The notes below the pieces were generated by a model. The model made no database searches, had not been told where the DNA came from, and saw only the letters and a list, made by a program, of their open reading frames with translations. DNA of 64,000 nucleotides from Escherichia phage vB_EcoM_ESCO25: sequence record OM386656.1; one strand, written 5' to 3'. Made by a program: the position numbers and the translations under genes. Of the stretch, positions 14,477 through 47,399 are shown in pieces; within the stretch, counting starts at the first letter, position 1, and each line of letters opens with the position of its first letter.

Positions 14477-14914
14477 TTAACGTCGCTTGCTACGAGATGA
14501 ACTCTTTTTACTTAAAGGGCTATTGTAAGATTTACGAGTTGTATAGCTACTATTTGTTTTAAAAGTTTGTCTCGGCTTTTCATAAGTTTTTATCTCTTGT
14601 TTAGGCTTACTATAAAAATTAGTTTTCGGTTTAGGTGTATTATAATGCTTATTAATAATCGTTCTGTTATCGTTATAATCCCCACTGCTACGATTACTAC
14701 CGCCACTCATCATATGCCCTAACAACATACCTGTAGCAAACTCACCAACACCGCTACTACTAGAACCGCCACCATTGTTGATAATAGTTGTATCTCCGTC
14801 AGATCCTTGTTGAGCGTATTGTTGAGGAGGTTGTTGGTATTGTGCAGGATTTGTCTCATCCTCGCAAGCTGTTAAAAAGATACAACCAATTAAAATCAGG
14901 GCTAGTTTTTTCAT
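14477..14914 (-). CDS. lipoprotein, low-complexity Q/G/S-rich
   Basis: Start trimmed to MKKLALILIGCIFLTAC (lipobox LTAC); the remainder is Gln/Gly/Ser/Lys-rich. Confidence 0.6.
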   Translation of the reverse strand: MKKLALILIGCIFLTACEDETNPAQYQQPPQQYAQQGSDGDTTIINNGGGSSSSGVGEFATGMLLGHMMSGGSNRSSGDYNDNRTIINKHYNTPKPKTNFYSKPKQEIKTYEKPRQTFKTNSSYTTRKSYNSPLSKKSSSRSKRR

Positions 14915-15101
14915 ATTTGCTTTCCTCGTTTTGGCTATTAATACATCTGTGTTTGAAATCTCCAGAGAAGCAATAAAGTTGCTCTCCATCTCGGTATAAA
15001 CTCACTTTACTGCCGTTGATTACGCTTGTCAATACAAAAATTACAACAAACAACCCTATTGCAAAACAAATATTTTCAAACACAACCAACAAGTATTTCA
15101 T
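14856..15101 (-). CDS. possible small membrane protein
   Basis: 81 aa ORF with hydrophobic N-terminus LLVVFENICFAIGLFVVIFVLTSVI; overlaps the lipoprotein start, so uncertain. Confidence 0.35.
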   Translation of the reverse strand: MKYLLVVFENICFAIGLFVVIFVLTSVINGSKVSLYRDGEQLYCFSGDFKHRCINSQNEESKYEKTSPDFNWLYLFNSLRG

Positions 15102-15448
15102 TTTAAAAATACCTCATCATCAGTTTCATTATCCCAGAAGAACAAGTCCCAACCATTCGGATCATTCCATTTAGCTGCTGGAGAAGTCCATATTTGCTCG
15201 ATATCAATATTCAAAACTTCACCGTTTCGTTTTGAAACAGCTTTAGTTAATTCCCAACGGGATACAGGCTCCACTTCCCCTGAACCACTCCCACAACAAG
15301 CTACCACATTAGGAGGCAAATTAATTGGATCTTTGGTCACGATCATAACGCTTACCCCAGGGTAAACTTTTGAAAGATAATCTAAAACGTAATCCACATC
15401 ACCAGATAAATCCCAAACAAGTTCTTGAATTTCATCAAAATTACTCAT
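15098..15448 (-). CDS. hypothetical protein
   Basis: 116 aa ORF; RBS aggagag. Confidence 0.5.
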   Translation of the reverse strand: MSNFDEIQELVWDLSGDVDYVLDYLSKVYPGVSVMIVTKDPINLPPNVVACCGSGSGEVEPVSRWELTKAVSKRNGEVLNIDIEQIWTSPAAKWNDPNGWDLFFWDNETDDEVFLK

Positions 15449-15454
15449 AAGTCT

Positions 15455-15484
15455 CTCCTATAAAATAGCCTCCCGAAGGAGGCT
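15455..15484 (-). terminator. intrinsic terminator after terC
   Basis: AGCCTCC-cgaa-GGAGGCT hairpin (15467-15484), followed on the minus strand by TATTTTATA. Confidence 0.55.
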
Positions 15485-15490
15485 CATTTA

Positions 15491-16465
15491 TTAAACAGTA
15501 GCTTCTTCTTTTTCAGGGAAGATAAAGCTTGCAATAACACCAAGAGATAATGTGCCTAGAACAATCATCAGACTTACGTTAGGGGAAATATCATGCGGGA
15601 GGAATGACCACTTGGCATGAAGTGTTTCACCGAACGGGTGATACATAAGTTTAGCACCAACAAACACCAGAACCACAGCAACAGCTTTCTCTAAGTGAAC
15701 CAGATATTTCACAGCTACACTTAACACAAAGAAAAGTGCACGTAAACCAAGAACAGCCATCAGCATTGCAGAATAAACTAGCAGAGGTTCTTGTGTCACA
15801 CCGATCACAGCCGGAACTGAATCAAAAGAGAAGACAATATCTGTAAGCTCAATAACAAACACACAAAGAAGAGCAGGAGTTGCATATTTAATACCATTCT
15901 TAATGGTGATGAACTTTTCACCATCCAGTGCATTGTGCACAGGCAGAACTTTACCTACTAAACGAACAGCCCAATGTTTAGAGTAATCAATATCCTCTTC
16001 TTTGTCACCACCTTTGATGATAGCCACGGCAGACCAAGCTACAATCAAACCGAACAACACTTGGACCGACCAATGAAGGTTAAACAAAGCGGTCCCTGCT
16101 GCAACAAAAATACCTCGGAAGACAATGGCTCCTGCAATCCCCCAAAGTAGAATCTTATGTTGGAGATGTGTGCTCTTAATTCCAAAGCTTGCAAAAATTG
16201 CCATGAACACCATTAGGTTATCTACAGAAAGACTCTTTTCCAACACATAGCCACTTAGGAAAAGCGCGGCAAACTCTTTACCATGTTCTACCCAAATGAA
16301 TGCGTAATACCCTAAAGCTAAAGCAATCCAAAAAACAGACCAAAGCAAAGCAGATTTAATTCCAATTTCTTTATTCTCTTTATGACCAAAGAAATCGATA
16401 CCAATAGACAATGCTAAAATACCAACTAAAACAACTACATCAATAATTGGGAAACCGAGTTGCAT
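15491..16465 (-). CDS. terC: TerC-family integral membrane protein
   Basis: 324 aa, multiple transmembrane helices; LSGYVLEKSLSVDNLMVFMAIF and downstream helices match the TerC/Alx signature (LSxDNxxVF). Confidence 0.8.
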   Translation of the reverse strand: MQLGFPIIDVVVLVGILALSIGIDFFGHKENKEIGIKSALLWSVFWIALALGYYAFIWVEHGKEFAALFLSGYVLEKSLSVDNLMVFMAIFASFGIKSTHLQHKILLWGIAGAIVFRGIFVAAGTALFNLHWSVQVLFGLIVAWSAVAIIKGGDKEEDIDYSKHWAVRLVGKVLPVHNALDGEKFITIKNGIKYATPALLCVFVIELTDIVFSFDSVPAVIGVTQEPLLVYSAMLMAVLGLRALFFVLSVAVKYLVHLEKAVAVVLVFVGAKLMYHPFGETLHAKWSFLPHDISPNVSLMIVLGTLSLGVIASFIFPEKEEATV

Positions 16466-16482
16466 TCTTTTCTCCTCTCTTT

Positions 16483-16541
16483 GCGGGGAACTATTCCCCG
16501 CTTCATGTGATATATCTTACTCTTTTTAAGAACTATGTCAA
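16483..16541 (-). promoter_or_regulatory. PeSL-like cassette (promoter plus 5' stem-loop) upstream of terC
   Basis: Minus strand: TTGACA (16541-16536), N16, TAAGAT (16519-16514), atatcacatgaa, hairpin GCGGGGAATAGTTCCCCGC (16501-16483), RBS gagaggag; same architecture as the plus-strand array at 38.3-48.2 kb. Confidence 0.6.
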
Positions 16542-16544
16542 CAC

Positions 16545-16766
16545 TTATTTTGTTGAATGAGAGGAAAAGATTCCTCGTAATACCGCCAAAATAAACGAAA
16601 CACAAACCACGGTCCAGAAGGTTACTGGGACAGTGATATCTGCATGACCCATAACTTCAGCAACATAGTTGTAAGCCAGCAACAGTAACCAAGCTGGAAT
16701 CAAACTAAGCATAAAAGCAATAACAAAAAAGCTTACCACTGCAACAATACCTGCAAAAACACCCAT
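16545..16766 (-). CDS. small membrane protein
   Basis: 73 aa, two or three hydrophobic helices. Confidence 0.5.
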   Translation of the reverse strand: MGVFAGIVAVVSFFVIAFMLSLIPAWLLLLAYNYVAEVMGHADITVPVTFWTVVCVSFILAVLRGIFSSHSTK

Positions 16767-16778
16767 ACTAATCTCCTC

Positions 16779-17252
16779 TTAAAGTTTATAAATAGTCACA
16801 TCGTGACCTGTTTTTACTAAAGTTTCTTCAATCATCACTTGGATGATAGCCCAATTACCTCCGGCATGTCCCGCTCCAATCATAGGTAAACCGATCTTAC
16901 ATTTTTGGTCACGGAGAAGCAAATCATTAGCCATAGCTATTAGTGCATCGTAAAGTGCATCATAGTCCAACTGACGACCTTTAGCATTGTATCCGTAACG
17001 GTATTGCCCGTATAGATTATATACCAAAGGGTCTGATTGTTCGTCTGGCACCCCTAAACTAAAAGAACCTAACTTACTTTGATCACCAGCCATTGTGTCT
17101 AAATCTGCCGCATATGCATAAGGGAATGCTCGTTTAATTTGCGGAGCAATTCCTGCTCCCATATTACACATACAATTGCAACAATGAGCAATAACAGTTA
17201 CTTCACCTGCTTTAGCGGCATCAATAAGATTACCTGTTTTCATTTTAAGCAT
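16779..17252 (-). CDS. macro domain protein (ADP-ribose binding or hydrolysing)
   Basis: Start set at MLKMK with AAGGAG RBS; VIAHCCNCMCNMGAGIAPQIKRAFP and GLPMIGAGHAGG resemble the macro-domain Gly-rich loops. Confidence 0.65.
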   Translation of the reverse strand: MLKMKTGNLIDAAKAGEVTVIAHCCNCMCNMGAGIAPQIKRAFPYAYAADLDTMAGDQSKLGSFSLGVPDEQSDPLVYNLYGQYRYGYNAKGRQLDYDALYDALIAMANDLLLRDQKCKIGLPMIGAGHAGGNWAIIQVMIEETLVKTGHDVTIYKL

Positions 17253-17265
17253 TTTTAGCTCCTTA

Positions 17266-18742: not shown

Positions 18743-18743
18743 A

Positions 18744-21851: not shown

Positions 21852-21921
21852 TATTAATCCTTATTTTGTGAGTAGAACTATTATTCTACCTCTTTCAACC
21901 GAAAAAAGCTTTGAGGGAAAT

Positions 21922-21947
21922 CAAAAAAGGCGCAAAGTGCGCCTTTA
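21922..21947 (-). terminator. intrinsic terminator after gene 21955..23370
   Basis: GGCGCA-aag-TGCGCC hairpin; on the minus strand followed by TTTTTTGATTT. Confidence 0.6.
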
Positions 21948-21954
21948 AGTTTTA

Positions 21955-37158: not shown

Positions 37159-37213
37159 TATTTTAACTTTTTTCATTTTTAGAACAAAGGTGTCACTTTG
37201 TAGCACAGAAATA

Positions 37214-37249
37214 AGGCTCCTACAGCACCGTAGAGAGCCTGTTATTTTG
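37214..37249 (+). terminator. intrinsic terminator after the NADAR gene
   Basis: Nested hairpin AGGCTC-[CTAC-agcacc-GTAG]-a-GAGCCT followed by GTTATTTTG. Confidence 0.55.
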
Positions 37250-38233: not shown

Positions 38234-38419
38234 GATATCGCCCTTTCTTTGTTGTGCGCCCTGGTTGGCGCGGTAGAAAGATAATAGCCCTTTTCTTTAT
38301 ATATAGCAAGCAAAAAGAAAATAAAAAAGATTGAAAAATGGTTGACGTTAACCAGGCGGCGGCGTAGTATTCATCTTGTAGGGCGGCAATGGTGCCGCTC
38401 ACTATTTGGAGTTAAGATC

Positions 38420-38617
38420 ATGGCAACATTGCACATTGTGGCGAAAGCTGGACAAATCAACGTAGTGGTAAACGGTTTTACTGAGTTCAGTCACCCCCAG
38501 GATGATCATGAAACGGTTTTATCTTTCATTGATTCCCTGTTAGAAATGGGAGTCATTACAGAAGACCAGCACGCTACAAAATGCAAGCGCGTTAATCAAA
38601 TCGCAGGAATAGAATAA
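38420..38617 (+). CDS. hypothetical small protein (cassette gene)
   Basis: Start set at ATG after cassette hairpin (MATLHIVAKAG...); the track ORF began upstream of the promoter. Confidence 0.5.
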   Translation: MATLHIVAKAGQINVVVNGFTEFSHPQDDHETVLSFIDSLLEMGVITEDQHATKCKRVNQIAGIE

Positions 38618-38707
38618 AAACTATTGACAACAAACAACAACCTGATAAGATGTATCACATAGGGCGGGAAGTGGTTTCCCGCTCGTAACAGAAGAGAGAT
38701 TATCATC

Positions 38708-38980
38708 ATGGCATCATATAGCGCAACAATGATCGTAGCTGGCACAACTGGTAAACCTATGAGCGGTGGCGGATCTTTCGCTAATATCAATATTGACGGG
38801 CGTTTATCCCTGGACGCAGCGATCGCTATTGCACGGGAAACATTTAAGAAAGAATGTAATTTCAACAAGCAAGATTATCTCGGTTTCGCTATTGAAAAAA
38901 CCGCGCGCTTTGTTGATTATAAAAGCCCGAAAATGGTTGATACTACACTAAAAGCGCAAGATGTAGCGTTTTTGCTTTAA
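38708..38980 (+). CDS. hypothetical small protein (cassette gene)
   Basis: 90 aa ORF after cassette; RBS agagag. Confidence 0.5.
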   Translation: MASYSATMIVAGTTGKPMSGGGSFANINIDGRLSLDAAIAIARETFKKECNFNKQDYLGFAIEKTARFVDYKSPKMVDTTLKAQDVAFLL

Positions 38981-39056
38981 GGCTTGACATTAACGAATAA
39001 TTTGTTAATATGTTACATAAAGCGGGAATAGTTCCCGCTATTTGTAAGGTGGTAGA

Positions 39057-39314
39057 ATGTTTTACATCAAATTAAAAGGTCACGTGATCGCGTTCAAAGA
39101 TAACGCTTTTTACAGATTAGCAAAATATGCGTTAATACATCCCCACTATGTTTATATAAGGAGGCGTGATGAAATAAATATCTTTGATCAAACAACATGC
39201 GAGAACATCGAGATCCGCAAGGTTGGCGTACGTGATTATCGTACATCTTTCTACCCTTGCAAGGATTCAGCAAGTCTTTTTAAAGTATGCCAATTGTTGA
39301 AAAAAGGTGGTTAA
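39057..39314 (+). CDS. hypothetical small protein (cassette gene)
   Basis: 85 aa ORF after cassette. Confidence 0.5.
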   Translation: MFYIKLKGHVIAFKDNAFYRLAKYALIHPHYVYIRRRDEINIFDQTTCENIEIRKVGVRDYRTSFYPCKDSASLFKVCQLLKKGG

Positions 39315-39873
39315 TATGGGCCGCGAATATGTGATCCAGTCTTGGGTAAAACATGAAGCAGATGATCCGCGCATCATTCCCGATCATCTTATCGATGAAT
39401 CCACGGGATATAGCGGTGAGCAAATAGGTAACAGATTAGCACGTAGTAACGGCAACGTAAAAGCGCGTTATGTGCGCCCTGGTTGGCTGGCAAATGGTAA
39501 CGCTGATTTATCCAGTGCGGAAGATGCGAGCGACGGCGCGAAAGATAATCCTTTGTACAAAGTTGATCCGGCTTTTCGTGTCCTGGATGAATACCCCAGC
39601 AAGATAGCGGCGCTCGATCAGGCCCTGGAAAGTAAGCGCATCACCTGGACCGCTTACAACATGGCAAAAAACGTACTTGATGGTAAATTGATTCAAGCTG
39701 AAAGAAAATTAGCCAAAATTGCAGCCATAGCCCAGGAGGAAGACGAGGAGACAACGGAAGAGGAAGAGTACGAAGAGATCCCGCCGTTGTTGTGTGTTGA
39801 TGCTTTTCCTGATTATCAGCCGACAGAGGAAGAAAAAAGGATCGCACTAGAAAACTTTGAAAATAGTCTTTGA
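39307..39873 (+). CDS. hypothetical protein, acidic C-terminus
   Basis: 188 aa ORF; EEDEETTEEEEYEE tail. Confidence 0.5.
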   Translation: MVNMGREYVIQSWVKHEADDPRIIPDHLIDESTGYSGEQIGNRLARSNGNVKARYVRPGWLANGNADLSSAEDASDGAKDNPLYKVDPAFRVLDEYPSKIAALDQALESKRITWTAYNMAKNVLDGKLIQAERKLAKIAAIAQEEDEETTEEEEYEEIPPLLCVDAFPDYQPTEEEKRIALENFENSL

Positions 39874-39955
39874 CATATCGCCGCCACTGGCATAATATTT
39901 ACCACGTAGGGCGGCAATGGTGCCGCTCATAGTGAAATTATGCAAGAGGCTTACA

Positions 39956-40051
39956 ATGATTAATAAAGAAAATAGCTTGACGGTTGGAACGATTAACGCT
40001 ATCATTCTAGCCGTTCCATTTTGGATTGTAGTAGCGGCTATTATTTTCTAA
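39956..40051 (+). CDS. hydrophobic micro-ORF (31 aa), not on ORF track
   Basis: MINKENSLTVGTINAIILAVPFWIVVAAIIF, downstream of cassette 39870..39927. Confidence 0.35.
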   Translation: MINKENSLTVGTINAIILAVPFWIVVAAIIF

Positions 40052-40141
40052 AAATATTCTTGACAACGTTTTTTAATCTGATAAGATGTATCACATAGGG
40101 CGGCGGAATACTTCCCCGCCAAAACAAAAAAGGGTAACACA

Positions 40142-40504
40142 ATGAGCAAGCAAATCAATACTATCATGTTAAACCTGGTATCCTTCCGCGATGATATGAA
40201 AAATTTACCACGTGAAACGGTTGATATTCATGTTTCAGCTTATCGCGCCCTTATTGACATGTTACCGCTAAAACGTGATCAACATGCCGCTAACATGATG
40301 CTTAATGCTATGCTTAAAAAGATGATTCAAACGGATCTCATCCTGGCGTATGAGTATCAAGGGCGCTTATATGCTACTTACAACAAGGCGGTACCTGGTC
40401 TGGGAAGTACCGAAGAGTTGCACGGCTTAAACCTGGATCAGAACACTTGGGATAGTATGCGCCGCGTTATGGTATGGGCCGAAAGCGGTAAAATTTACGA
40501 ATAA
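40142..40504 (+). CDS. hypothetical protein (cassette gene)
   Basis: 120 aa ORF after cassette. Confidence 0.5.
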   Translation: MSKQINTIMLNLVSFRDDMKNLPRETVDIHVSAYRALIDMLPLKRDQHAANMMLNAMLKKMIQTDLILAYEYQGRLYATYNKAVPGLGSTEELHGLNLDQNTWDSMRRVMVWAESGKIYE

Positions 40505-40586
40505 AACGGTTGACACTGTTTAAAATTCTGGTATAGTTTATCACGTAGGGCGGCAATGGTGCCGCCAACAATAAAAGGTTAACATC

Positions 40587-40766
40587 ATGACTATCATTGC
40601 AAAAACTGAGATTATAGGTTTAGATTCGATCCTCCTGGCTTATGAGGAAACTTTAAAAATGTATGTAGTGACCTATGGTGATTATGTGCGTGAATACGAA
40701 TACATTGATCTTGCTTTCGAATGTTACATTCGCCAGGTCAATAAAGCCTATAACGATTATCGTTAA
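40587..40766 (+). CDS. hypothetical small protein (59 aa), not on ORF track
   Basis: MTIIAKTEIIGLDSILLAYEETLKMYVVTYGDYVREYEYIDLAFECYIRQVNKAYNDYR after cassette 40510..40566. Confidence 0.45.
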   Translation: MTIIAKTEIIGLDSILLAYEETLKMYVVTYGDYVREYEYIDLAFECYIRQVNKAYNDYR

Positions 40767-40863
40767 AAGTTTTAGTCTTATACTATTGACAATGAGTGAT
40801 AGTATAAGCATAATAACTTTTATCGGGAATACTTCCCACTAACCAAAAAAAGAGAGTAATATC

Positions 40864-41229
40864 ATGGCTATTAATATCAATGTTTCCTCTTATGCTACCC
40901 TGGCTGACACGGCTAAAATTGAATTATCCAGCATTGAGGCGGTGCATATTAGCGCCCGTCGTTGGTTTCAACAGTCCTACGGTAACACATATTTTTCTTT
41001 AATGGTTGACGTTGAGATCGGCGGTAAACTGATCGAGGTGGTTAACGTTCCGTTTCAATATGGTTATGGTGATCATTTTGATACCGTCGCCCTGGAAGAA
41101 TTTAGCAAGGTTATTAATATGGAAGGTAAAGAGTTTTCACGCGGCGCGTATCTTTCCCGTTTTTGCCGTGACAATGGGATCACTGTATACAGTCATGCAA
41201 GCGATGTTAAACGTAAAAAAGATTTATAA
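40864..41229 (+). CDS. hypothetical protein (cassette gene)
   Basis: 121 aa ORF after cassette. Confidence 0.5.
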   Translation: MAININVSSYATLADTAKIELSSIEAVHISARRWFQQSYGNTYFSLMVDVEIGGKLIEVVNVPFQYGYGDHFDTVALEEFSKVINMEGKEFSRGAYLSRFCRDNGITVYSHASDVKRKKDL

Positions 41230-41321
41230 AAAGCATTGACAGCACGAATAAAAAGAGTAAACTGTATTACATCAAGGCGGCGGAATGGTCCACCGCCTAA
41301 CAAAGAGAAGAGGAAAACATC

Positions 41322-41489
41322 ATGATCACTTTCGCTACCCGTGAAGCCGCTCGCAACGTTGCCCGTAAAGTTAACGCCGCCAACCTGGGCGCTACGCTTA
41401 AAGCCCCTGTAAAAGATGAATCAGGAAAATGGATCTTCCCTGGTCTGCGTCATGCTGACAAGTTAGGTACTTTAAGCCTTAAAAAATAA
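41322..41489 (+). CDS. hypothetical small basic protein (55 aa), not on ORF track
   Basis: MITFATREAARNVARKVNAANLGATLKAPVKDESGKWIFPGLRHADKLGTLSLKK; shares the first 15 coding nt and RBS context with the next gene. Confidence 0.45.
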   Translation: MITFATREAARNVARKVNAANLGATLKAPVKDESGKWIFPGLRHADKLGTLSLKK

Positions 41490-41563
41490 TCGTTGACTTT
41501 TCGTTATAGCGCCTTATAATGGGCGCTATAGAGAAGAGAAACCACTACTAACAAGGAAACATC

Positions 41564-41785
41564 ATGATCACTTTCGCTATTGTCGCCGTTGTCGCTGGTC
41601 AGGTTTACATAAACGATACATTCACCACAGAAGACAAGGCCGCAGGAGACATAACCGCCGTTTACAATGAGTGCAAGGCAGTAGAAAGGATGTTAGCGCC
41701 TTGTATGCTAATGAGTGAACGCCAGGACGGGATAACAGTATTTACTAACATTGAAACAGGGTACCAAATGGTAGTAACAAAATAA
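41564..41785 (+). CDS. hypothetical small protein (cassette gene)
   Basis: 73 aa ORF; starts MITFA, identical 5' junction to the previous gene. Confidence 0.5.
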   Translation: MITFAIVAVVAGQVYINDTFTTEDKAAGDITAVYNECKAVERMLAPCMLMSERQDGITVFTNIETGYQMVVTK

Positions 41786-41864
41786 AGCTTGACACGGATT
41801 TAATTTTTAGTAAACTGTTACACGTAGGGCGGGAATAGTTCCCGCTCAAAAAGAGAGAAAGACC

Positions 41865-42218
41865 ATGAAAGCACAAAATGCAATTAAAGAGTACATCCTT
41901 GCCGCTATCGATTTTAATGATTACGGTATTACAACCGAAAAAGAGAAGATCGCGGAATTGATGCGCCGTTTTAATTCCGAGTACTGGTACCCTGATAACC
42001 AATCACGTTTTAATTATAGTATTGTTAAAGCACTTGCATCATGGTTACAAGGCTTGCCATCAGATATCAATATCGCTTTCGAATATTGGGAAATTGATCG
42101 CCTGTTAACATCCTGGGGATACATTAAAGAGAATAGCAGCGATGATAAAATCCAACGAGAAAGGGAAAATTATTGGCTTTATATTGCAGGCGTGATCCTT
42201 GCTTGCTCTTATGAATGA
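41865..42218 (+). CDS. hypothetical protein (cassette gene)
   Basis: 117 aa ORF. Confidence 0.5.
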   Translation: MKAQNAIKEYILAAIDFNDYGITTEKEKIAELMRRFNSEYWYPDNQSRFNYSIVKALASWLQGLPSDINIAFEYWEIDRLLTSWGYIKENSSDDKIQRERENYWLYIAGVILACSYE

Positions 42219-42297
42219 TAAACCTTGACAATTTTACAAAACAGTTTAAATTAACAATATAGCGGCAATGGTGCCGCTCATATGAAGAGGAAACAAA

Positions 42298-42444
42298 ATG
42301 AATACATCTAATCGCGCAGAAAAAATTCAATCTTCCAAGATCCGCAAGGCCTGGAACGAGGAAGTGATCCGCAAAGGCGACAAGCGCAATAAAACAAAGC
42401 GTGGGAAGAGTGACAAATATAATTGGATGGATTTAGAGGATTAA
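42298..42444 (+). CDS. hypothetical small basic protein (48 aa), not on ORF track
   Basis: MNTSNRAEKIQSSKIRKAWNEEVIRKGDKRNKTKRGKSDKYNWMDLED; followed by a terminator. Confidence 0.4.
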   Translation: MNTSNRAEKIQSSKIRKAWNEEVIRKGDKRNKTKRGKSDKYNWMDLED

Positions 42445-42452
42445 CATAACAA

Positions 42453-42479
42453 GGGGCGCACCAAGCGCCCTTTCTTTTT
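42453..42479 (+). terminator. intrinsic terminator (copy 1 of a repeated terminator)
   Basis: GGGGCGCACCAAGCGCCC followed by TTTCTTTTT; identical to the copy at 48656. Confidence 0.65.
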
Positions 42480-42500
42480 ACATGTAGAGGATAAACAAAG

Positions 42501-42686
42501 ATGACTTTAAGCGAGCTTAAAACAGCCTACAACGCAACGTTAAAAATAGCCGTGCGTTACCGTGACGAATACGGTTTTATTGCGCAGGGCGTGATCCTGG
42601 GCTTTTCTGACGATGGTTTGATCTATGTTGATGCACATCACAATAAGGTTAAACCTGAAAACGTCATTAGCATAAAATATCTTTAA
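42501..42686 (+). CDS. hypothetical small protein
   Basis: 61 aa ORF; RBS agagga. Confidence 0.45.
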   Translation: MTLSELKTAYNATLKIAVRYRDEYGFIAQGVILGFSDDGLIYVDAHHNKVKPENVISIKYL

Positions 42687-42770
42687 AAGTGGTTGACACC
42701 ATAACCGGACCTGTTAAACTGTATTACATCAGGCGGGGAATAGTTCCCACCATACAAAAAGGTAAATATT

Positions 42771-42977
42771 ATGATCACCGCAAAACAAGAAAAAATCATT
42801 ATCGACGTTGCAGCCGTTGCTGCTATTGCTATTATTGGATCTTATTATGACACCGCGCGTCCTTCCTCCTTGCATGAGGTCGCCGCCGTTGCATCAGTTG
42901 GCGTACTGTTTTACGTTGGTAAACGCTATTTATCACCAATGATTAACAAGCTGACACCGTGGAAAAATAAAGGTTGA
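42771..42977 (+). CDS. small membrane protein (cassette gene)
   Basis: 68 aa; hydrophobic IIIDVAAVAAIAIIGSYY. Confidence 0.5.
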   Translation: MITAKQEKIIIDVAAVAAIAIIGSYYDTARPSSLHEVAAVASVGVLFYVGKRYLSPMINKLTPWKNKG

Positions 42978-43048
42978 TCCTGTTTTATATTGTGTTATAG
43001 TTATCGTGTAGGGCGGCAATGGTGCCGCGCCCTTTTGAGGATGCAATC

Positions 43049-43333
43049 ATGAGTAAAGCTAACACCGTGCTAATGTTTTCCCTGATTAATGATTCCGCTT
43101 ACTTGTCCAACATGACGCAGGAGGGTAACACATTAACGGCAACATTCACCAATAAGCTTGACCGGGTGATCATCGTCTCACTGAAAACAGTTAGTAAAGG
43201 CTTTTACTCGTTAGCTTATCATTGGATCACCGATACCGATGAGACAAGCCAGGACTATAGCACCCCTTTCCCTGAATCAATGGCACGGGAGGTCATCGCC
43301 GCCGTTGTAAATGATGGTTTGTTTACTGCATAA
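43049..43333 (+). CDS. hypothetical protein (cassette gene)
   Basis: Start trimmed to MSKANTVLMF. Confidence 0.5.
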   Translation: MSKANTVLMFSLINDSAYLSNMTQEGNTLTATFTNKLDRVIIVSLKTVSKGFYSLAYHWITDTDETSQDYSTPFPESMAREVIAAVVNDGLFTA

Positions 43334-43431
43334 AATAATTTAGAAAAAGGCTTGCAATCATTTTGAGATAGTGTATATTTAATTCATAGGGCGGCGGGAA
43401 TAGTTCCCAAAGCAAACGAGAGGATTACACG

Positions 43432-43551
43432 ATGAGCAAGTACACAGTAGAATACACGGTAGAGAATCCGGCAGTATCCGAAGGTAAAAAGATGACATTT
43501 GCCATCAGTATAATCGCTTTCGTTGTCACTATCTTATCAATCATCTTATAA
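43432..43551 (+). CDS. hydrophobic micro-ORF (39 aa), not on ORF track
   Basis: MSKYTVEYTVENPAVSEGKKMTFAISIIAFVVTILSIIL after cassette 43352..43408. Confidence 0.4.
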   Translation: MSKYTVEYTVENPAVSEGKKMTFAISIIAFVVTILSIIL

Positions 43552-43561
43552 GGTGCACACC

Positions 43562-43723
43562 ATGAAAACAACAGATATTATCAAAGAGATCGCCCTTGCC
43601 GCTGACGTTGAGATCGAGGAAGTGATCGCGCTCAATCTTACAGAAAACGATCTGCGCAACTATGAAGCGGAAAGCGTGAAAGCAAGTGGCGCGGTCCTGG
43701 CATATAATCCGGCTAACAAATAG
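43562..43723 (+). CDS. hypothetical small protein
   Basis: Start trimmed to MKTTDIIKEI. Confidence 0.45.
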   Translation: MKTTDIIKEIALAADVEIEEVIALNLTENDLRNYEAESVKASGAVLAYNPANK

Positions 43724-43803
43724 TTTGACAAGCTGAATCAACCTGATAAGATGTATCACATAGGGGCGACAAGCGCCCCGCCTAACAGAAGAGAGAAAAA
43801 ATC

Positions 43804-44082
43804 ATGACCATCGTTAAATTAACAACCGAAGAAATGAAAACAATGTTAACCACTAATTTACAAAATTGGAAAATTGGTGTTGACGTTGAAACAGTGTGCA
43901 AGTTGAACGACAAACTAACACCGGACGACATTGAAACGATCATCCGTGCAGATTTCTATGATGCTTTATACGATGATTCCACAGTCCTTGAAACGATGTT
44001 GGATAACGCTTGGATCAATCCCGATTTGGCGGCTTATGGTCATCTTGCCTTTGAAGCCATCCATAATGTTTATAATCGTTAA
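43804..44082 (+). CDS. hypothetical protein (cassette gene)
   Basis: 92 aa ORF. Confidence 0.5.
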   Translation: MTIVKLTTEEMKTMLTTNLQNWKIGVDVETVCKLNDKLTPDDIETIIRADFYDALYDDSTVLETMLDNAWINPDLAAYGHLAFEAIHNVYNR

Positions 44083-44092
44083 GGGGGATAAC

Positions 44093-44203
44093 ATGAATCC
44101 GAAAGATATGCAAGCATGGAAAGGGTACGACGATCTAAGCGCCTTGCGCAATAAGTCAAGCCGTAACCTTAGACGGTTGGAAGCAAAGAAAAAGAAAAAA
44201 TAG
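44093..44203 (+). CDS. hypothetical small basic protein (36 aa)
   Basis: MNPKDMQAWKGYDDLSALRNKSSRNLRRLEAKKKKK; RBS aaggggga. Confidence 0.4.
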   Translation: MNPKDMQAWKGYDDLSALRNKSSRNLRRLEAKKKKK

Positions 44204-44281
44204 TTTGACAAGTCCGCCTAGTCTGATAATATGTATCTTGTAGGGCGGCAATGGTGCCGCTCACAAGAAGAGAGAAAAATC

Positions 44282-44566
44282 ATGAAAATCACAAAAAGCC
44301 TGACTAATTATGCAGCACGTCGCGGATTATGTTTAACCGTTGAAAACTTAGGGAAAGAAGACTTTTTGTGTTTTTGGGAGCTTGAAAATGATTGCGAGTG
44401 GATGTTTTCTTATTCTATCTGCGAAGATCAAAACGGTTGTTTGTTAACCTGGCGCGGTAATATCTATTTACCGGAAGAAATTAAAGAAGAGTTACCAGGT
44501 ACGATCATGACAGAGAGACAGCTTAAGGAAGTGATCAATTTTGTAGGGCAAAACATTAAAAAATAA
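44282..44566 (+). CDS. hypothetical protein (cassette gene)
   Basis: Start trimmed to MKITKSLTNY. Confidence 0.5.
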   Translation: MKITKSLTNYAARRGLCLTVENLGKEDFLCFWELENDCEWMFSYSICEDQNGCLLTWRGNIYLPEEIKEELPGTIMTERQLKEVINFVGQNIKK

Positions 44567-44651
44567 TTTGACAGTAGGCAAACAACGTAGTAAAGTTTAT
44601 TACATAGGGCGGCGGAATGGTCCACCGCTCACAACAGAAGAGAAACAAATC

Positions 44652-44822
44652 ATGATCCCGACTATGTTTTATGTATCGCGCAAAGGTCATAATATTTTTT
44701 GGTCTGAAGATTTAAATGAAGCCATGACGTTTGCCCGTGATCGTGTCGCTATCGGTGGCGTTAACATCACCGTAACCGATGAAAACGGCATTGAATACTA
44801 TAACGGCAACGATGAAGAGTAA
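44652..44822 (+). CDS. hypothetical small protein (cassette gene)
   Basis: Start trimmed to MIPTMFYVSRKG. Confidence 0.5.
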   Translation: MIPTMFYVSRKGHNIFWSEDLNEAMTFARDRVAIGGVNITVTDENGIEYYNGNDEE

Positions 44823-44866
44823 TCAACAAGGCGGGATTAATCCCGCCTGTATTAAAGGGTAATATA

Positions 44867-45013
44867 ATGAAAACTTTCAACGCAACAGCCTCGACAATTG
44901 GTTATATTATTACAGTGCAAGCCGTGGATCTGGTAGCAGCAACAAACAAGATTAAAAGAATGATCCCGATAGGCAGTGAATTTTCCGTTTGGGAAGTAAA
45001 AAATAAATCTTGA
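44867..45013 (+). CDS. hypothetical small protein (48 aa), not on ORF track
   Basis: MKTFNATASTIGYIITVQAVDLVAATNKIKRMIPIGSEFSVWEVKNKS; preceded by hairpin GGCGGGATTAATCCCGCC. Confidence 0.4.
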   Translation: MKTFNATASTIGYIITVQAVDLVAATNKIKRMIPIGSEFSVWEVKNKS

Positions 45014-45089
45014 CGATAATTTGTTATCTGATAGAATGTATTTCGTAGGGCGGGGCAATAAGGCAACGCCCATTAATGAGGGTAGAATC

Positions 45090-45194
45090 ATGTTAGAGAA
45101 AATTTTCACGGTTGTAGTAGTTGGCCTGGCGTTATCGGTTGGAGTGGTTGCAACTATGGCTAACATGATCCTATCTTCCCACGGTATCGGTTAA
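45090..45194 (+). CDS. hydrophobic micro-ORF (34 aa), not on ORF track
   Basis: MLEKIFTVVVVGLALSVGVVATMANMILSSHGIG after cassette 45010..45070. Confidence 0.4.
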   Translation: MLEKIFTVVVVGLALSVGVVATMANMILSSHGIG

Positions 45195-45195
45195 G

Positions 45196-45420
45196 GTGAA
45201 ACAAATGATCACGAACAAAACAGGCAAAACGGAATTTTTACGCGGCTTACAAGTTGGTAAGCCTGAGATCTGGCATTGCACGAAGTCCGCGCATAATGAA
45301 ATGAAAGATTTCACCGCTACTTTACAACGTGTTAAAATATCTATCACACAGAAAAAAGCCTTGTTGGTAGTAGAAAACGAGATCCCGCAAACTATTATTA
45401 TTGTCGAGCGTACAGCATGA
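45196..45420 (+). CDS. hypothetical small protein
   Basis: 74 aa ORF (GTG start; ATG at 45205 is an alternative). Confidence 0.45.
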   Translation: MKQMITNKTGKTEFLRGLQVGKPEIWHCTKSAHNEMKDFTATLQRVKISITQKKALLVVENEIPQTIIIVERTA

Positions 45421-45803
45421 AAACAGAAATCATTAACGAAATCATCAACGGCTATAAAGAAGCCTTTATTTTTGCTGAATCAGCAAGGGATCATGAAGGT
45501 AATTTTATTGATAACTTAGACGATTATGATTTTTCTCCTAGCGCGGACGAACGGATCGCCCAGGATGTAACAGCCTTTATTAATGCTAATCTTGCCGCTA
45601 TCTCTGAGGCAATGAGCGACGGCGCAACAGCCAACCAGATCGGGAATGATTTACATTTTACCCGTAACAGTCACGGCGTAGGCTTTTGGGATCGCCCTGA
45701 AATATACACCACTAACACGGCGAACCGCCTAACCAATGCAGCTAAGTTTATGCCGAACGTGTCGGCTTACATTGGTGAAGATAATTTGATTTATATTGAA
45801 TAA
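45417..45803 (+). CDS. hypothetical protein
   Basis: 128 aa ORF; ATGA overlap. Confidence 0.5.
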   Translation: MKTEIINEIINGYKEAFIFAESARDHEGNFIDNLDDYDFSPSADERIAQDVTAFINANLAAISEAMSDGATANQIGNDLHFTRNSHGVGFWDRPEIYTTNTANRLTNAAKFMPNVSAYIGEDNLIYIE

Positions 45804-45884
45804 AAAGTATTGACACAGATCGCCAGTGTGCTAATATTTACCACGTAGGGCGGCAATGGTGCCGCCGATAATGAGGAAAGTAAA

Positions 45885-46184
45885 ATGGAAACTATCGCTA
45901 TTGTTACCGTAGAAAAACTGGTTGTTGGTGATGTATTCGCGTTAATGGTGCCTAACAGCAGCAAACTGGGTGCTTATGAAGTAATGGATCATAAAAATGA
46001 ATCATTTGGCGACGGTTGCACAATGGCGGTAAAATCTTTAAAGGATGGAATCATCCGCCAGGCTAACTGGCACAAAGGGAATCAAGTCGGTTTAATATCA
46101 GCTAATTTCTTGCCAGAAGAGCAAACGTTAGACCAACTATCAGGCGGTAAGACGTTAGCCGAACTACTGGAAACAGCGATCTAA
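45885..46184 (+). CDS. hypothetical protein (cassette gene)
   Basis: 99 aa ORF. Confidence 0.5.
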   Translation: METIAIVTVEKLVVGDVFALMVPNSSKLGAYEVMDHKNESFGDGCTMAVKSLKDGIIRQANWHKGNQVGLISANFLPEEQTLDQLSGGKTLAELLETAI

Positions 46185-46228
46185 TCAACAAAGGGGCGGC
46201 AACGCCCCACATCAGAAAGGAAAAGATT

Positions 46229-46465
46229 ATGAGTATTGCAACAGTATTAAACGCCGTTAAAACCGCTGAATCATCCGGCTTGCATGTTGAGCTTATAGAT
46301 CAACCAGGTGGCGATCTCCTTGTCCAGGTTTACCCGCCGAAAGTAGGGGATGATTATTATTGGGCTTATTCTGATACGTTCGAACAAGTAGACACGAAAG
46401 CGATCACGGCTTTTATTTTAAAAGCTATTGAAGAAAATAACTTTCATCATAACATCAATCAATAA
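46229..46465 (+). CDS. hypothetical protein
   Basis: 78 aa ORF after hairpin GGGGCGGCAACGCCCC. Confidence 0.5.
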   Translation: MSIATVLNAVKTAESSGLHVELIDQPGGDLLVQVYPPKVGDDYYWAYSDTFEQVDTKAITAFILKAIEENNFHHNINQ

Positions 46466-46519
46466 ACCATAAGCGGGGCGGTAACGCCCCATTAAACGCA
46501 ATAGGAAGAGGATAGGCGC

Positions 46520-46804
46520 ATGAAAAAGATGATCGCAGTAGTTGCCCTGGTTGTTGGTATTAACGCGCCTGTAATGGCGAAAGAGTTGCCAGAATCCATC
46601 ACGTTAACCGATATTAACGCAGTGAACCGGATCGGCGTTAATTATCGCCTATACCTTGCCGCTAAAACTTTCCAGGACGGCACAACAGAGTACTACGGAT
46701 TCGAGGGTGTCCGGTGCGGTGAGCTTGCACGCGACCTTAAGGAAGATCCAGACCTTGAGGCCATACCGATGACCGTAAACGGTAAAGCCCAGGTAAACCG
46801 CTAA
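46520..46804 (+). CDS. secreted protein (signal peptide)
   Basis: MKKMIAVVALVVGINAPVMA signal peptide. Confidence 0.55.
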   Translation: MKKMIAVVALVVGINAPVMAKELPESITLTDINAVNRIGVNYRLYLAAKTFQDGTTEYYGFEGVRCGELARDLKEDPDLEAIPMTVNGKAQVNR

Positions 46805-46806
46805 CC

Positions 46807-46941
46807 ATGAGAAAGGTAATCATCACAATGGGGATCGTAGTAGCAACGCTGGCGCTTATCCCCTTCATGGTTGAATATGTGCTGATTAATGTTGTCCTGG
46901 TAGTCAGTGACCTATTGGAAACGGTTGGCACCTGGTTTTAA
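46807..46941 (+). CDS. hydrophobic micro-ORF (44 aa), not on ORF track
   Basis: MRKVIITMGIVVATLALIPFMVEYVLINVVLVVSDLLETVGTWF. Confidence 0.4.
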   Translation: MRKVIITMGIVVATLALIPFMVEYVLINVVLVVSDLLETVGTWF

Positions 46942-46953
46942 GGAGTAATAAAA

Positions 46954-47145
46954 ATGAATGCAGAACAAGTTAGAAAGGTATTAGCAGCGTTGCGGTATCA
47001 CAACCATAGCAAGGTAAAAAATGATCCTGATTATGTGGATTCAAGCCTGGAAGAAGACACATTGCAAGCTATAAGCCATATGCAAGAATTGTTTAAGCGT
47101 ATGACAGAGAAGAACAGATCTGATTATATAGGTGACGAGATCTAA
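46954..47145 (+). CDS. hypothetical small protein
   Basis: 63 aa ORF; RBS aaggag. Confidence 0.5.
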   Translation: MNAEQVRKVLAALRYHNHSKVKNDPDYVDSSLEEDTLQAISHMQELFKRMTEKNRSDYIGDEI

Positions 47146-47154
47146 TCTTTACAA

Positions 47155-47186
47155 AAACAGGGCTTGCTTTTGTCCTGTTTTTTGTT
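47155..47186 (+). terminator. intrinsic terminator
   Basis: AACAGG-gcttgcttttgt-CCTGTT followed by TTTTTG. Confidence 0.5.
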
Positions 47187-47399
47187 ATGCTTATTGAACG
47201 GGCGGCACTTGGGAGCAGGGGAAGATAATCACCGGAAGACCCCGCTATATATTGATAGCTAATACCTATCAAACAACAAAACATCAAAGAGATAAACTAT
47301 CAAATCTTTACAATCCCACCTATTGACACCGGATCACGCTTACATTATTATTTATCACGTAGGGCGGGAATGTTTCCCACCTGATTTAGGAGTCATATC

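What the first reader, a model, noticed from the sequence alone, without database searches (positions are those of the whole stretch)
15455..16541. terC sits in a self-contained cassette: PeSL-like promoter and hairpin upstream, intrinsic terminator downstream
The only PeSL-like element found on the minus strand (TTGACA-N16-TAAGAT-atatcacatgaa-GCGGGGAATAGTTCCCCGC) lies directly upstream of terC, and a clean terminator (AGCCTCC-cgaa-GGAGGCT plus T-tract) directly downstream. terC therefore looks like an independently transcribed, possibly horizontally inserted, moron-type unit inside the long operon, using the same mobile regulatory cassette as the small-gene array 22 kb away.
Basis: seen in the sequence. 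Interest (0 to 1): 0.55.

Follow-up and report, generated by a model that had tools for sequence, protein, structure and literature searches.

The report
Phage terC with own promoter cassette
A phage copy of the bacterial metal-transport gene terC carries its own strong promoter, a small RNA hairpin at the start of its message and a hairpin terminator, but it is an old, conserved resident of this phage group and not a recent insertion, and most of these parts were already annotated in sister genomes.

Summary
On the minus strand, TTGACA-N16-TAAGAT, 12 nt, then the 8-bp hairpin GCGGGGAA-TAG-TTCCCCGC precede terC (15491-16465). AGCCTCC-TTCG-GGAGGCT plus ATTTTAT follows it. A profile built only from the plus-strand cassettes recovers the upstream element at E=3.5e-11, the only full-length minus-strand copy.

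The window is a phAPEC8-like coliphage (Phapecoctavirus, Stephanstirmvirinae), not T4-like.

The "horizontally inserted moron" reading is not supported:
- terC has typical composition and codon use.
- It occurs in about as many subfamily genomes as its neighbouring PRTase (132 vs 131 records).
- It keeps its place in a Ter-type block (HAD, PRTase, macro, TerC, TelA, TerD).
- Its nearest named cellular homologues are only about 51-55% identical.

Independent transcription is plausible but untested. Of 18 related loci, 16 keep promoter plus leader hairpin and all 18 keep the downstream hairpin. Both stems change only by compensatory substitutions.

Unlike T4 PeSLs, the hairpin lies downstream of the -10, inside the transcript. 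It most likely acts as a 5' mRNA element, not a terminator. The downstream terminator must leak, because the next two genes have no promoter.

In the early array the cassettes mark recombination breakpoints (14 of 26, P about 3e-4). Sister records (phAPEC8, ASO2A) already annotate the parts.

The parts
16514..16541 (-). Sigma70-type promoter: -35 TTGACA (16541-16536), 16-nt spacer, -10 TAAGAT (16519-16514), with an A-rich stretch upstream (aaaataag).
   Evidence: An orthologous promoter is kept in 16 of 18 related loci with varying hexamers (TTGACT, TATAGT, TAATAT, TAGAAT, TAAAGT). It is annotated as a promoter in phAPEC8 and ASO2A. Activity has not been measured.
16483..16501 (-). Leader hairpin GCGGGGAA-TAG-TTCCCCGC: 8 bp, 3-nt loop, starting 12 nt after the -10. 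On the inferred start site it would occupy roughly +5 to +24 of the transcript.
   Evidence: It forms in the MFE and centroid folds and leaves the SD unpaired. There are six orthologous stem versions. All pairs are standard, with two independent double compensatory events and no disruptive change.
16466..16482 (-). A-rich spacer with the Shine-Dalgarno sequence (AGGAG) upstream of the terC ATG.
   Evidence: Annotated as an RBS in ESCO13. Unpaired in the centroid fold.
15491..16465 (-). terC, 324 aa, TerC/Alx-family integral membrane protein.
   Evidence: Pfam TerC 3e-40. TIGR03718 R_switched_Alx 318 bits, cut-off 246. PHROG 7180. 132 phage records at >=60% identity.
15460..15484 (-). Downstream hairpin AGCCTCC-TTCG-GGAGGCT (15484-15467, a C(UUCG)G tetraloop) plus ATTTTAT. 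It is an intrinsic terminator or attenuator, and possibly a 3'-end stabiliser.
   Evidence: -16.9 kcal/mol, z -4.2. A hairpin is present in 18 of 18 related loci, in 7 versions whose changes are compensatory (G-C to A-T, paired deletion). The T-tract is poorly conserved. Annotated as a terminator in ASO2A.
16545..16766 (-). Upstream 73-aa ORF (PHROG 16065). Its stop codon lies 3 nt before the -35. Together with the cassette it forms the divergent patch between the window and phAPEC8.
38335..47392 (+). Early array of about 17 paralogous promoter + leader-hairpin cassettes, each in front of one or a few small ORFs.
   Evidence: Hyperplastic: only 14 of 254 records cover >=80% of window 38000-48500. 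Breakpoints are enriched at cassettes.

Best explanation
terC is a long-resident, vertically inherited accessory gene of the Stephanstirmvirinae. It encodes an Alx-type TerC-family metal-homeostasis membrane protein. It sits inside a conserved Ter-type block: HAD-like hydrolase, ComF-like PRTase, macro domain, TerC, TelA, TerD/E.

In most members it has its own host-RNA-polymerase (sigma70) early promoter. In this genome that promoter is a copy of the promoter + leader-hairpin cassette that drives the small early genes.

Proposed mechanism:
1. On infection, host RNA polymerase starts about 6-8 nt after TAAGAT (inferred).
2. The first ~25 nt of the RNA fold into a stable GC hairpin that leaves the Shine-Dalgarno free (shown by folding and by covariation).
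3. This 5' hairpin most likely protects or marks the mRNA. The favoured role is 5'-end stabilisation against 5'-end-dependent decay; recognition of its AU(R)G loop is a possible alternative (inferred).
4. terC is therefore expressed early and constitutively. The phage leader has no match to the Mn2+-sensing yybP-ykoY riboswitch for which this TerC subfamily (TIGR03718) is named; that absence is shown.
5. The conserved downstream UUCG hairpin terminates or attenuates transcription and caps the 3' end. It must leak, because the next two genes have no promoter of their own (inferred from anatomy).
6. Read-through from upstream promoters probably adds to terC transcription.

The cassette, not the gene, is the evolutionarily mobile part.
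For: Anatomy:
- All motifs are present as described.
- The element belongs to the cassette family at E=3.5e-11.

Conservation:
- Promoter + leader hairpin is kept in 16 of 18 subfamily loci spanning 71-99% TerC identity; the downstream hairpin is kept in 18 of 18.
- All stem changes preserve pairing. There are two independent double-compensation events in the leader, each with P about 0.011-0.013 under random substitution. There is one G-C to A-T switch and one paired deletion in the downstream stem.
- The hairpin forms in the centroid fold with the SD free.
- In Klebsiella-type versions the stem starts 7 nt after the -10, so it would sit at the very 5' end of the RNA.
- Their stem differs from their own early-array hairpins, so structure is conserved rather than stem sequence.

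Residency:
- Typical GC, GC3 and codon use.
- 132 TerC records against 131 PRTase records at >=60% identity.
- Conserved Ter-type neighbours.
- Nearest named cellular homologues are 51-55% identical.
- TIGR03718 match above cut-off, with no Rfam hit in the leader even at E<=10.

Leakiness: the RBS and ATG of the next gene follow the T-tract directly, and the next promoter-like site is at 15032.
Against: - No transcription data exist. Promoter activity, the start site and terminator efficiency are all inferred.
- In the E. coli-phage versions the hairpin starts about 5-7 nt after the inferred start site. From my own knowledge of the ompA 5'-hairpin work, that is at the limit of what protects against 5'-end-dependent decay.
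- Other strong minus-strand promoters in the window (30877, 28486, 9816, 2291) have no hairpin, so a hairpin is not required for expression.
- Two lineages do without the cassette (FBKp34, IMGVR_71a).
- The T-tract after the downstream hairpin is poor in phi92-, Klebsiella- and phiWec181-type loci, so it may not terminate there.
- The function of TerC for the phage is unknown.
Confidence: 0.6

Rival explanations
1. terC is a moron, a recently and horizontally inserted promoter-gene-terminator unit brought in by a mobile regulatory cassette.
For: - The promoter-gene-terminator layout matches the moron definition.
- PHROGs files the family under 'moron, auxiliary metabolic gene and host takeover'.
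- The genes immediately flanking terC differ among lineages.
- rV5-type relatives were not seen among the TerC hits.
- TerC is scattered over unrelated phage families, so it was acquired at some point.
Against: - No compositional or codon signal.
- Present in essentially every subfamily genome, with no empty site.
- Embedded among functionally linked Ter-type genes that are also conserved.
- Nearest named cellular homologues are 51-55% identical.
- Two lineages keep terC and its downstream hairpin without any promoter cassette, so gene and cassette are separable.
- The tuntematon allele replacement has its breakpoints inside the coding sequence, not at the cassette.
Confidence: 0.08
2. The leader hairpin is a terminator or insulator for transcription arriving from upstream. 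This is how T4-type PeSL stem-loops work, and it is how the hairpin is annotated in phage ASO2A. On this reading the cassette is a true terminator-promoter composite.
For: - WebGeSTer called it a rho-independent terminator in ASO2A.
- T4-type PeSL stem-loops, which are also GC-rich, reduced reporter expression as strongly as rrnB T1.
- Array genes each have their own cassette, which is consistent with insulation.
Against: - The hairpin lies downstream of the -10, so an efficient terminator would also abort the cassette's own transcripts at about +25.
- It is followed by A-rich sequence with no U-tract (AAAGAGAGG) in nearly all copies.
- The consensus scan did not flag it as a terminator.
Confidence: 0.12
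3. The hairpin is a specific recognition site for a phage or host factor acting on the RNA loop. Candidates include an antiterminator, a translational regulator or a nuclease. Alternatively it acts at the DNA level as a recombination or binding site. Stabilisation would then be secondary.
For: - The apical motif A-U-[A/U/G]-G is present in 32 of 40 cassette hairpins, against a random expectation of about 7%.
- The same motif is present in 4 of the 5 other terC leader versions, including Klebsiella-type hairpins whose stems are unrelated.
- Covarying stems with a conserved loop are the usual signature of protein-bound RNA hairpins (my own knowledge).
- The -10-to-hairpin segment GTATCACATAGG is also strongly conserved.
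- Breakpoints cluster at cassettes.
Against: - The copies are paralogues and orthologues, so loop conservation may simply reflect shared ancestry.
- Exceptions exist: GUGG, AUGU, ACAAG, AUAC.
- No candidate binding protein was identified.
- Completely different stems argue against a sequence-specific duplex-DNA operator.
Confidence: 0.18
4. Chance resemblance: an ordinary intergenic sequence that happens to match the sigma70 consensus and contain a palindrome.
For: Sigma70-like matches are no more frequent than in shuffled sequence.
Against: - Full-length profile match at E=3.5e-11.
- Conservation with compensatory changes across genera.
Confidence: 0.01

Closest known systems
PeSL (promoter-early stem-loop) cassettes of T4-type phages (Arbiol et al. 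2010, PMC2839356; Comeau et al. 2014, PMC4122927)
   Same: - Repeated ~80-100 nt composite elements.
- Each has an A/T-rich upstream stretch, a near-consensus sigma70 promoter, a GC-rich stem-loop, and the SD and start codon of a small gene.
- They are clustered in a hyperplastic early region.
- Indel and replacement breakpoints coincide with the elements.
   Different: - The order of parts differs. Here the stem-loop follows the -10 and is transcribed into the leader. In T4-type PeSLs it lies upstream of, between or over the promoter hexamers and acts as a terminator.
- The phage lineage is different (Stephanstirmvirinae, with a few copies in an rV5-type Vequintavirus).
- BLAST with the terC cassette found no match outside phAPEC8/phi92-type records.
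- The terC copy sits in a stable region, not a hyperplastic one.
- Mini-circle formation was not tested.
Morons of lambdoid and other phages (promoter-gene-terminator units; Juhala/Hendrix definition, from my own knowledge)
   Same: A promoter in front and a terminator behind a non-essential accessory gene inside a co-directional gene string.
   Different: No presence/absence polymorphism, no atypical composition, and the gene is functionally linked to its conserved neighbours.
Bacterial Alx/TerC genes controlled by the yybP-ykoY Mn2+ riboswitch (TIGR03718 'R_switched_Alx')
   Same: The protein scores above the curated cut-off of this subfamily.
   Different: The phage leader is about 40 nt with a single hairpin, and it has no Rfam match even at E<=10. 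The metal- or pH-sensing leader expected for this subfamily is not there; a constitutive early promoter drives the gene instead.
5'-terminal stabilising stem-loops (ompA 5' UTR hairpin; phage T7 gene 10 leader) (from my own knowledge)
   Same: A short, stable GC hairpin at or near the 5' end of an mRNA, followed by an unstructured A-rich ribosome-binding region.
   Different: In the E. coli-phage versions about 5-7 unpaired nucleotides would precede the stem. No half-life data exist.
Ter stress-response gene neighbourhoods (TerD, TelA, TerC, PRTases, HAD phosphatases; Anantharaman, Iyer and Aravind 2012, from my own knowledge)
   Same: Co-occurrence of TerC, TelA, TerD/E, PRTase_3 (ComF-like) and a HAD-like hydrolase on one strand. 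Other phage families also pair TerC with TerD, TerB or PRTase genes.
   Different: This is a phage-borne, reduced set interleaved with small ORFs of unknown function. No function has been tested.

Membership tests
T4-type PeSL | Near-consensus sigma70 early promoter | tested here: met
   TTGACA-N16-TAAGAT, 10 of 12 consensus positions. This is a sequence-level test only.
T4-type PeSL | Adjacent stable stem-loop within the same conserved ~100-nt element | tested here: met
   An 8-bp GC hairpin lies 12 nt after the -10.
T4-type PeSL | Stem-loop placed upstream of or within the promoter, acting as terminator for incoming transcription | tested here: not met
   The hairpin is downstream of the -10 in every copy and has no U-tract.
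T4-type PeSL | Many copies clustered in hyperplastic regions in front of small ORFans | tested here: met
   About 17 copies lie at 38.3-47.4 kb, and the region is highly mosaic. The terC copy itself lies outside that region, in a stable locus.
T4-type PeSL | Insertion, deletion or replacement breakpoints coincide with the elements | tested here: met
   14 of 26 distinct breakpoints lie within 20 nt of a cassette, against 21% expected, P=2.8e-4. At terC, the phAPEC8 patch ends at the cassette/ATG junction, but the tuntematon patch does not.
T4-type PeSL | Formation of excised mini-circles by recombination between flanking elements | not testable with these tools
   Needs inverse PCR on infected cells or virion DNA.
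T4-type PeSL | Sequence relationship to the elements of T4-like phages | tested here: not met
   blastn with the 86-nt cassette hit only phAPEC8/phi92-type records, 78 in all. This test is insensitive below about 75% identity.
Moron | Own promoter and own terminator flanking the gene | tested here: met
   at sequence level. Both are conserved.
Moron | Gene present in some related genomes and absent in others, with the flanking genes then adjacent | tested here: not met
   132 TerC records against 131 PRTase records at >=60% identity. No empty site was seen in the 18 loci examined. The full record lists were not cross-matched.
Moron | Composition or codon usage different from the surrounding genome | tested here: not met
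   GC z +0.24, GC3 z -0.32, synonymous-codon likelihood z -0.31 against 124 ORFs of the window.
TerC/Alx subfamily (TIGR03718) | Score above the curated whole-protein cut-off | tested here: met
   318.2 bits against a cut-off of 246.4. Pfam TerC 138 bits against 27.8.
TerC/Alx subfamily (TIGR03718) | yybP-ykoY riboswitch in the leader | tested here: not met
   No Rfam match in 14500-17500 at E<=10 other than noise, and none in the whole window at gathering scores.
Intrinsic (rho-independent) terminator | GC-rich hairpin immediately followed by a U-tract | tested here: met
   In the window, a 7-bp stem with 5 GC pairs and AUUUUAU. In relatives the hairpin is always kept but the U-tract is often poor (TTGTTGA, TTCTACA, TCTTACT).
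Intrinsic (rho-independent) terminator | Measured termination in vivo or in vitro | not testable with these tools
   No transcriptome for this phage group was found in the searched literature.
Ter-type gene neighbourhood | Co-location of TerC with TerD, TelA, PRTase and HAD-family genes | tested here: met
   PRTase_3 2.7e-41 and TelA 3.2e-33; the HAD-like match is weak in Pfam (0.0014) but PHROG 'hydrolase' gives 9e-121. TerE/TerD is annotated in ESCO13.

The most novel reading that the evidence does not exclude
Stephanstirmvirinae, and at lower density rV5-type phages, have their own PeSL-analogous system: a family of mobile 'sigma70 promoter + transcribed 5' hairpin' cassettes. The stems covary and the AU(R)G loop is conserved. 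On this reading the cassettes both set early mRNA fate, through a loop-recognising factor or 5'-end protection, and serve as preferred crossover points for shuffling early genes. One copy has been recruited to drive an Alx-type TerC that lacks the riboswitch leader typical of its bacterial subfamily, which would turn a metal-regulated bacterial gene into a constitutive early phage gene.
Probability: 0.4. Interest if true: 0.5.

Novelty: new variant of a known kind. Interest (0 to 1): 0.33.

Why it matters
- For terC itself, the result is a correction. It is a conserved member of a phage Ter-type module, not a fresh insertion. Its regulation appears to have been rewired from a riboswitch-type leader to an early host-polymerase promoter. 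That gives a concrete handle (a reporter fusion, or deleting the cassette) for asking what TerC does for a virulent phage early in infection.
- For the cassette family, the work shows that promoter/stem-loop composites associated with recombination breakpoints are not confined to T4-like phages. It also shows that a different arrangement exists, with the hairpin inside the transcript, which implies an RNA-level role.
- For annotation, the 'PHIRE promoters' in the phAPEC8 reference record and the leader 'terminator' in ASO2A are most likely the same 5' leader hairpin and should be re-labelled.

Tried and rejected
- Riboswitch or known RNA family in the terC leader: Rfam at E<=10 over 14500-17500, and at gathering scores over the whole window, gave nothing meaningful.
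- Recent acquisition from the host: rejected by composition and by the homologue search, where named cellular hits are 51-55% identical and not E. coli.
- Cassette-bounded exchange of terC: the tuntematon terC allele (73% aa) looked like a cassette-flanked swap, but its breakpoints lie about 100 nt inside the 5' end and about 40 nt before the stop. A similar patch lies in a cassette-less hydrolase gene. So this is ordinary patch recombination.
- Concerted evolution of the terC hairpin with each genome's array flavour: it holds within Phapecoctavirus but fails in the Klebsiella phage and in phi92-type phages.
- G-U wobble asymmetry to decide which strand folds: the signals conflict between the orthologues (sense strand) and some array paralogues (C-A mismatches on the sense strand), so I did not use it.
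- Literature: no paper in the searchable library describes this cassette family or transcript mapping for this phage group. The rV5 paper lists promoters and terminators only generically.
- The first related-loci run, with a single protein, returned only 4 loci. An alignment query was needed.
Full report
**What the window is.**
- The 2 kb around the finding is 100% identical to Escherichia phage ESCO13 and 98-99.9% identical to dozens of phAPEC8-like phages (Phapecoctavirus, Stephanstirmvirinae).
- Over the early array the window matches vB_EcoM_REC (100% coverage, 99.7% identity); ESCO13 covers only 51% of it.
- It is therefore not a T4-like phage, the group in which PeSLs were defined.

**Checking the observation.**
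- On the minus strand I read TTGACA (16541) - 16 nt - TAAGAT (to 16514) - atatcacatgaa - GCGGGGAA-TAG-TTCCCCGC - aaagagAGGAGaaaaga - ATG (16465).
- After the terC stop (15491) comes AGCCTCC-TTCG-GGAGGCT (15484-15467), then ATTTTAT, and then immediately the RBS and ATG (15448) of the next gene.
- The ORF is a real TerC: Pfam 3e-40, and TIGR03718 'R_switched_Alx' at 318 bits against a cut-off of 246.
- A sigma70-like match alone means little here: 34 sites against 35.8 expected in shuffles.
- The composite is not chance. The window holds about 17 elements of the same build on the + strand between 38.3 and 47.4 kb.
- An nhmmer profile made only from the + strand copies recovers the terC element over its full length at E=3.5e-11. 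It is the only full-length hit on the minus strand.

**Is terC a recently inserted moron? No.**
- *Composition.* terC has GC 39.9% (z +0.24), GC3 z -0.32 and synonymous-codon likelihood z -0.31 relative to 124 ORFs of the window.
- *Distribution.* tblastn finds TerC at >=60% identity in 132 phage records. The neighbouring ComF-like PRTase is found in 131. In all 18 subfamily loci I examined, terC is present. I found no empty site.
- *Context.* Upstream lie a HAD-like hydrolase, a PRTase_3 protein and a macro-domain protein. Downstream lie TelA and TerE/TerD. This is the gene company TerC keeps in Ter stress-response loci. The same order, hydrolase - PRTase - ... - TerC - ... - TelA, holds in phi92. 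Unrelated phage families also pair TerC with TerD, TerB or PRTase genes.
- *Origin.* The closest named cellular proteins are only 51-55% identical and are not from E. coli. A continuum of 67-99% homologues sits on 140-155 kb phage-sized contigs.

**Is it independently transcribed? Plausibly, by comparative evidence only.**
- Across 18 loci spanning 71-99% TerC identity, 16 keep a sigma70-type promoter followed by a hairpin and a free SD. Two lack both (Klebsiella phage FBKp34 and one IMG/VR contig). All 18 keep a hairpin just after the stop codon.
- The leader stem exists in six versions:
  - GCGGGGAA/TTCCCCGC
  - GCGGGGAG/TTCCCCGC
  - GCGGAGGA/TCCTCCGC
  - AAGAGGGGG/CTCCCTCTT
  - AAGAGGGAG/CTCCCTCTT
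  - AAGGGAGAG/CTCTCCCTT
- Every pair in every version is a standard pair. Two independent events each changed two pairs on both sides. The chance of keeping all pairs after two random substitutions per arm is about 0.011-0.013 per event.
- The downstream stem shows a G-C to A-T switch, a paired deletion and loop changes, again with no disruption.
- Both hairpins are therefore under selection for pairing.
- Folding puts the leader hairpin in the centroid structure with the SD unpaired. The downstream hairpin folds at -16.9 kcal/mol (z -4.2).

**How 'self-contained' is it?**
- Upstream, the stop codon of the 73-aa ORF lies 3 nt before the -35.
- Between the strong terminator at 21946-21926 and terC, only two weak, low-GC candidates inside coding sequence are predicted. 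Read-through into terC is therefore likely.
- Downstream, the 116-aa and 81-aa ORFs have no promoter-like site until 15032. They depend on read-through of the terC hairpin.
- The T-tract is good in this genome (AUUUUAU) but poor in phi92-, Klebsiella- and phiWec181-type loci.
- I read the downstream element as an attenuator and 3'-end cap rather than a full stop.

**Comparison with PeSLs.**
- The T4-type elements combine an A/T-rich stretch, a strong sigma70 promoter, a GC stem-loop, and the SD and start codon. They cluster in hyperplastic regions and sit at indel boundaries.
- In them the stem-loop lies upstream of, between or over the promoter hexamers, and it terminates incoming transcription.
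- Here the composition and the behaviour are the same.
  - The array is highly mosaic: only 14 of 254 records cover >=80% of it, against 64 of 72 for the terC region.
  - In comparisons with seven relatives, 14 of 26 distinct homology breakpoints fall inside or within 20 nt of a cassette, where 21% is expected (binomial P=2.8e-4).
  - One event is a window-specific insertion that is exactly cassette + ORF (43719-44080). Another is a cassette duplicated around about 1 kb of extra genes in relatives.
  - The breakpoints are not phylogenetically independent, so the P value is indicative only.
- The anatomy differs. In every copy, in this genome, in VEcB (Justusliebigvirus), in a Klebsiella phage and in an rV5-type phage, the hairpin follows the -10 by 7-14 nt and has no U-tract.
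- An efficient terminator in that position would abort the cassette's own transcripts. The hairpin is better explained as part of the mRNA.

**What the hairpin does (inferred).**
- *Favoured reading.* It is a 5' leader hairpin that stabilises or marks early transcripts. In the Klebsiella-type terC cassettes it would begin at about +1, the textbook arrangement for 5'-end protection.
- *Structure, not stem sequence, is conserved at terC.* The Klebsiella phage's terC hairpin is unrelated in stem sequence to its own array hairpins.
- *A hint of something more specific.* The apex motif A-U-[A/U/G]-G is present in 32 of 40 cassette hairpins and in 4 of the 5 other terC leader versions, whatever the stem. 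Random expectation is about 7%. Because the copies are related, this is a hint rather than a test.

**At the terC locus, the cassette is the mobile part.**
- It is missing in two lineages and carries a different stem in Klebsiella-type phages.
- Between the window and phAPEC8, a divergent patch (75-85% identity against 97-100% around it) covers exactly the 73-aa ORF plus the cassette and ends at the terC ATG.
- In contrast, the replacement of the terC allele in tuntematon (73% aa identity, with flanks 98-100% identical) has both breakpoints inside the coding sequence. A similar patch sits in a gene with no cassette.

**What was already known.**
- The phAPEC8 reference record annotates the terC promoter ('host dependent promoter determined with MEME').
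- In the array, it annotates the sigma70 parts (MEME) and, separately, 20-nt 'PHIRE promoters'. I show these are the leader hairpin motif RTAGGGCGGCAATGGTGCCG.
- Phage ASO2A annotates the promoter, the leader hairpin (as a 'terminator') and the downstream terminator around terC.
- I found no paper that describes the composite family, its covariation or its link to breakpoints, and no transcript mapping for this phage group.
- The phage TerC belongs to the subfamily named for riboswitch control, yet its leader has no riboswitch.

**Verdict.**
- The sequence observation is right.
- The 'independent transcription unit using the array's cassette' idea is reasonable and comparatively supported, but untested.
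- The 'horizontally inserted moron' idea is not supported.
- 'PeSL-like' is right for behaviour and wrong for anatomy.
- The terC finding as such is ordinary and largely annotated already. The modest novelty lies in the cassette family as a variant of the PeSL idea in another phage lineage.

Noticed in passing
window 37100-37970: A stretch of about 800 nt has no annotated CDS in ESCO13. A minus-strand promoter (TTGACA at 37964, 17 nt, TATACT) is followed by the GC-rich sequence GAAGCGCCACCCCACGGCGTAAAGGCGGGGC, which recurs almost unchanged in VEcB and in Klebsiella phage phi1_175008. After it come AT-rich repeats (AAACTTTAAAT...TTTTGTAAA, about 37380-37650) that look iteron-like. There is no tRNA and no Rfam match. 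It could be an origin or control region, or an unknown small RNA.
   Followed up: partly
window 15540-16365 and 18165-18765 vs L003 (phage tuntematon): There are two sharp mosaic patches of about 60-75% nucleotide identity inside otherwise 98-100% identical DNA. One is within the terC coding sequence and one is within the HAD-like hydrolase gene. Both have their breakpoints inside the genes.
   Followed up: yes
window 43719-44080: A window-specific insertion consists of one cassette, with the atypical hairpin GGGGCG-ACAAG-CGCCCC, plus one 92-aa ORF (43804-44082). It is absent from the six compared relatives that span this position. It is a genuine moron-like unit inside the early array.
   Followed up: partly
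window 41222-41308 (cassette c41236): All seven compared relatives carry about 0.9-1.2 kb of extra DNA here. In six of them it sits between two copies of the cassette, and the window has the collapsed single-cassette state.
   Followed up: partly
L107 (phAPEC8 JX561091.1, 143712-147561) and L007 (ASO2A): The 20-nt features annotated 'putative promoter determined with PHIRE' in the phAPEC8 reference record are the leader-hairpin motif, which lies directly downstream of sigma70 promoters. The 'terminator' annotated between promoter and terC in ASO2A is the same hairpin. Both are probably mis-typed.
   Followed up: yes
L013 (Vibrio phage PhiImVa-1, Schitoviridae), just after its terC stop: Its terC, only 46% identical in protein, is followed by AGCCTCC-TTAAT-TGGAGGCT + ATTTTAT. 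That is almost the same stem and tail as in the window (AGCCTCC-TTCG-GGAGGCT + ATTTTAT). This may be coincidence or a co-transferred terminator; it is unresolved.
   Followed up: no
window 16779-17318 (minus strand): The macro-domain protein next to terC (PHROG 'phosphatase') gives a weak, sub-threshold match to the DarG antitoxin ADP-ribosyl glycohydrolase model (35 bits, cut-off 250). It might counter ADP-ribosylating defence systems.
   Followed up: no
(public records): Records named Campylobacter phage (B15, A145, C3 and others), Acinetobacter phage ABPW7 and Pseudomonas phage PsgM04F match these E. coli Phapecoctavirus/Justusliebigvirus sequences closely; B15 and ABPW7 are >=98% identical to the window here. 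The host labels look doubtful.
   Followed up: no
L116 (rV5_ev147, Vequintavirinae) 213-288, 6851-6920, 8108-8174: Three copies of the same promoter + leader-hairpin cassette occur in 16 kb of an rV5-type phage, a group that was not seen among the TerC hits. The cassette family therefore extends beyond Stephanstirmvirinae at lower density.
   Followed up: partly
L001 (ESCO13) 1-2964, corresponding to about window 20037-23000: Two consecutive class III ribonucleotide reductase CDSs are annotated: 'class III ribonucleotide reductase', a 104-nt gap, then NrdD. The NrdD gene may be split or interrupted. Not examined.
   Followed up: no
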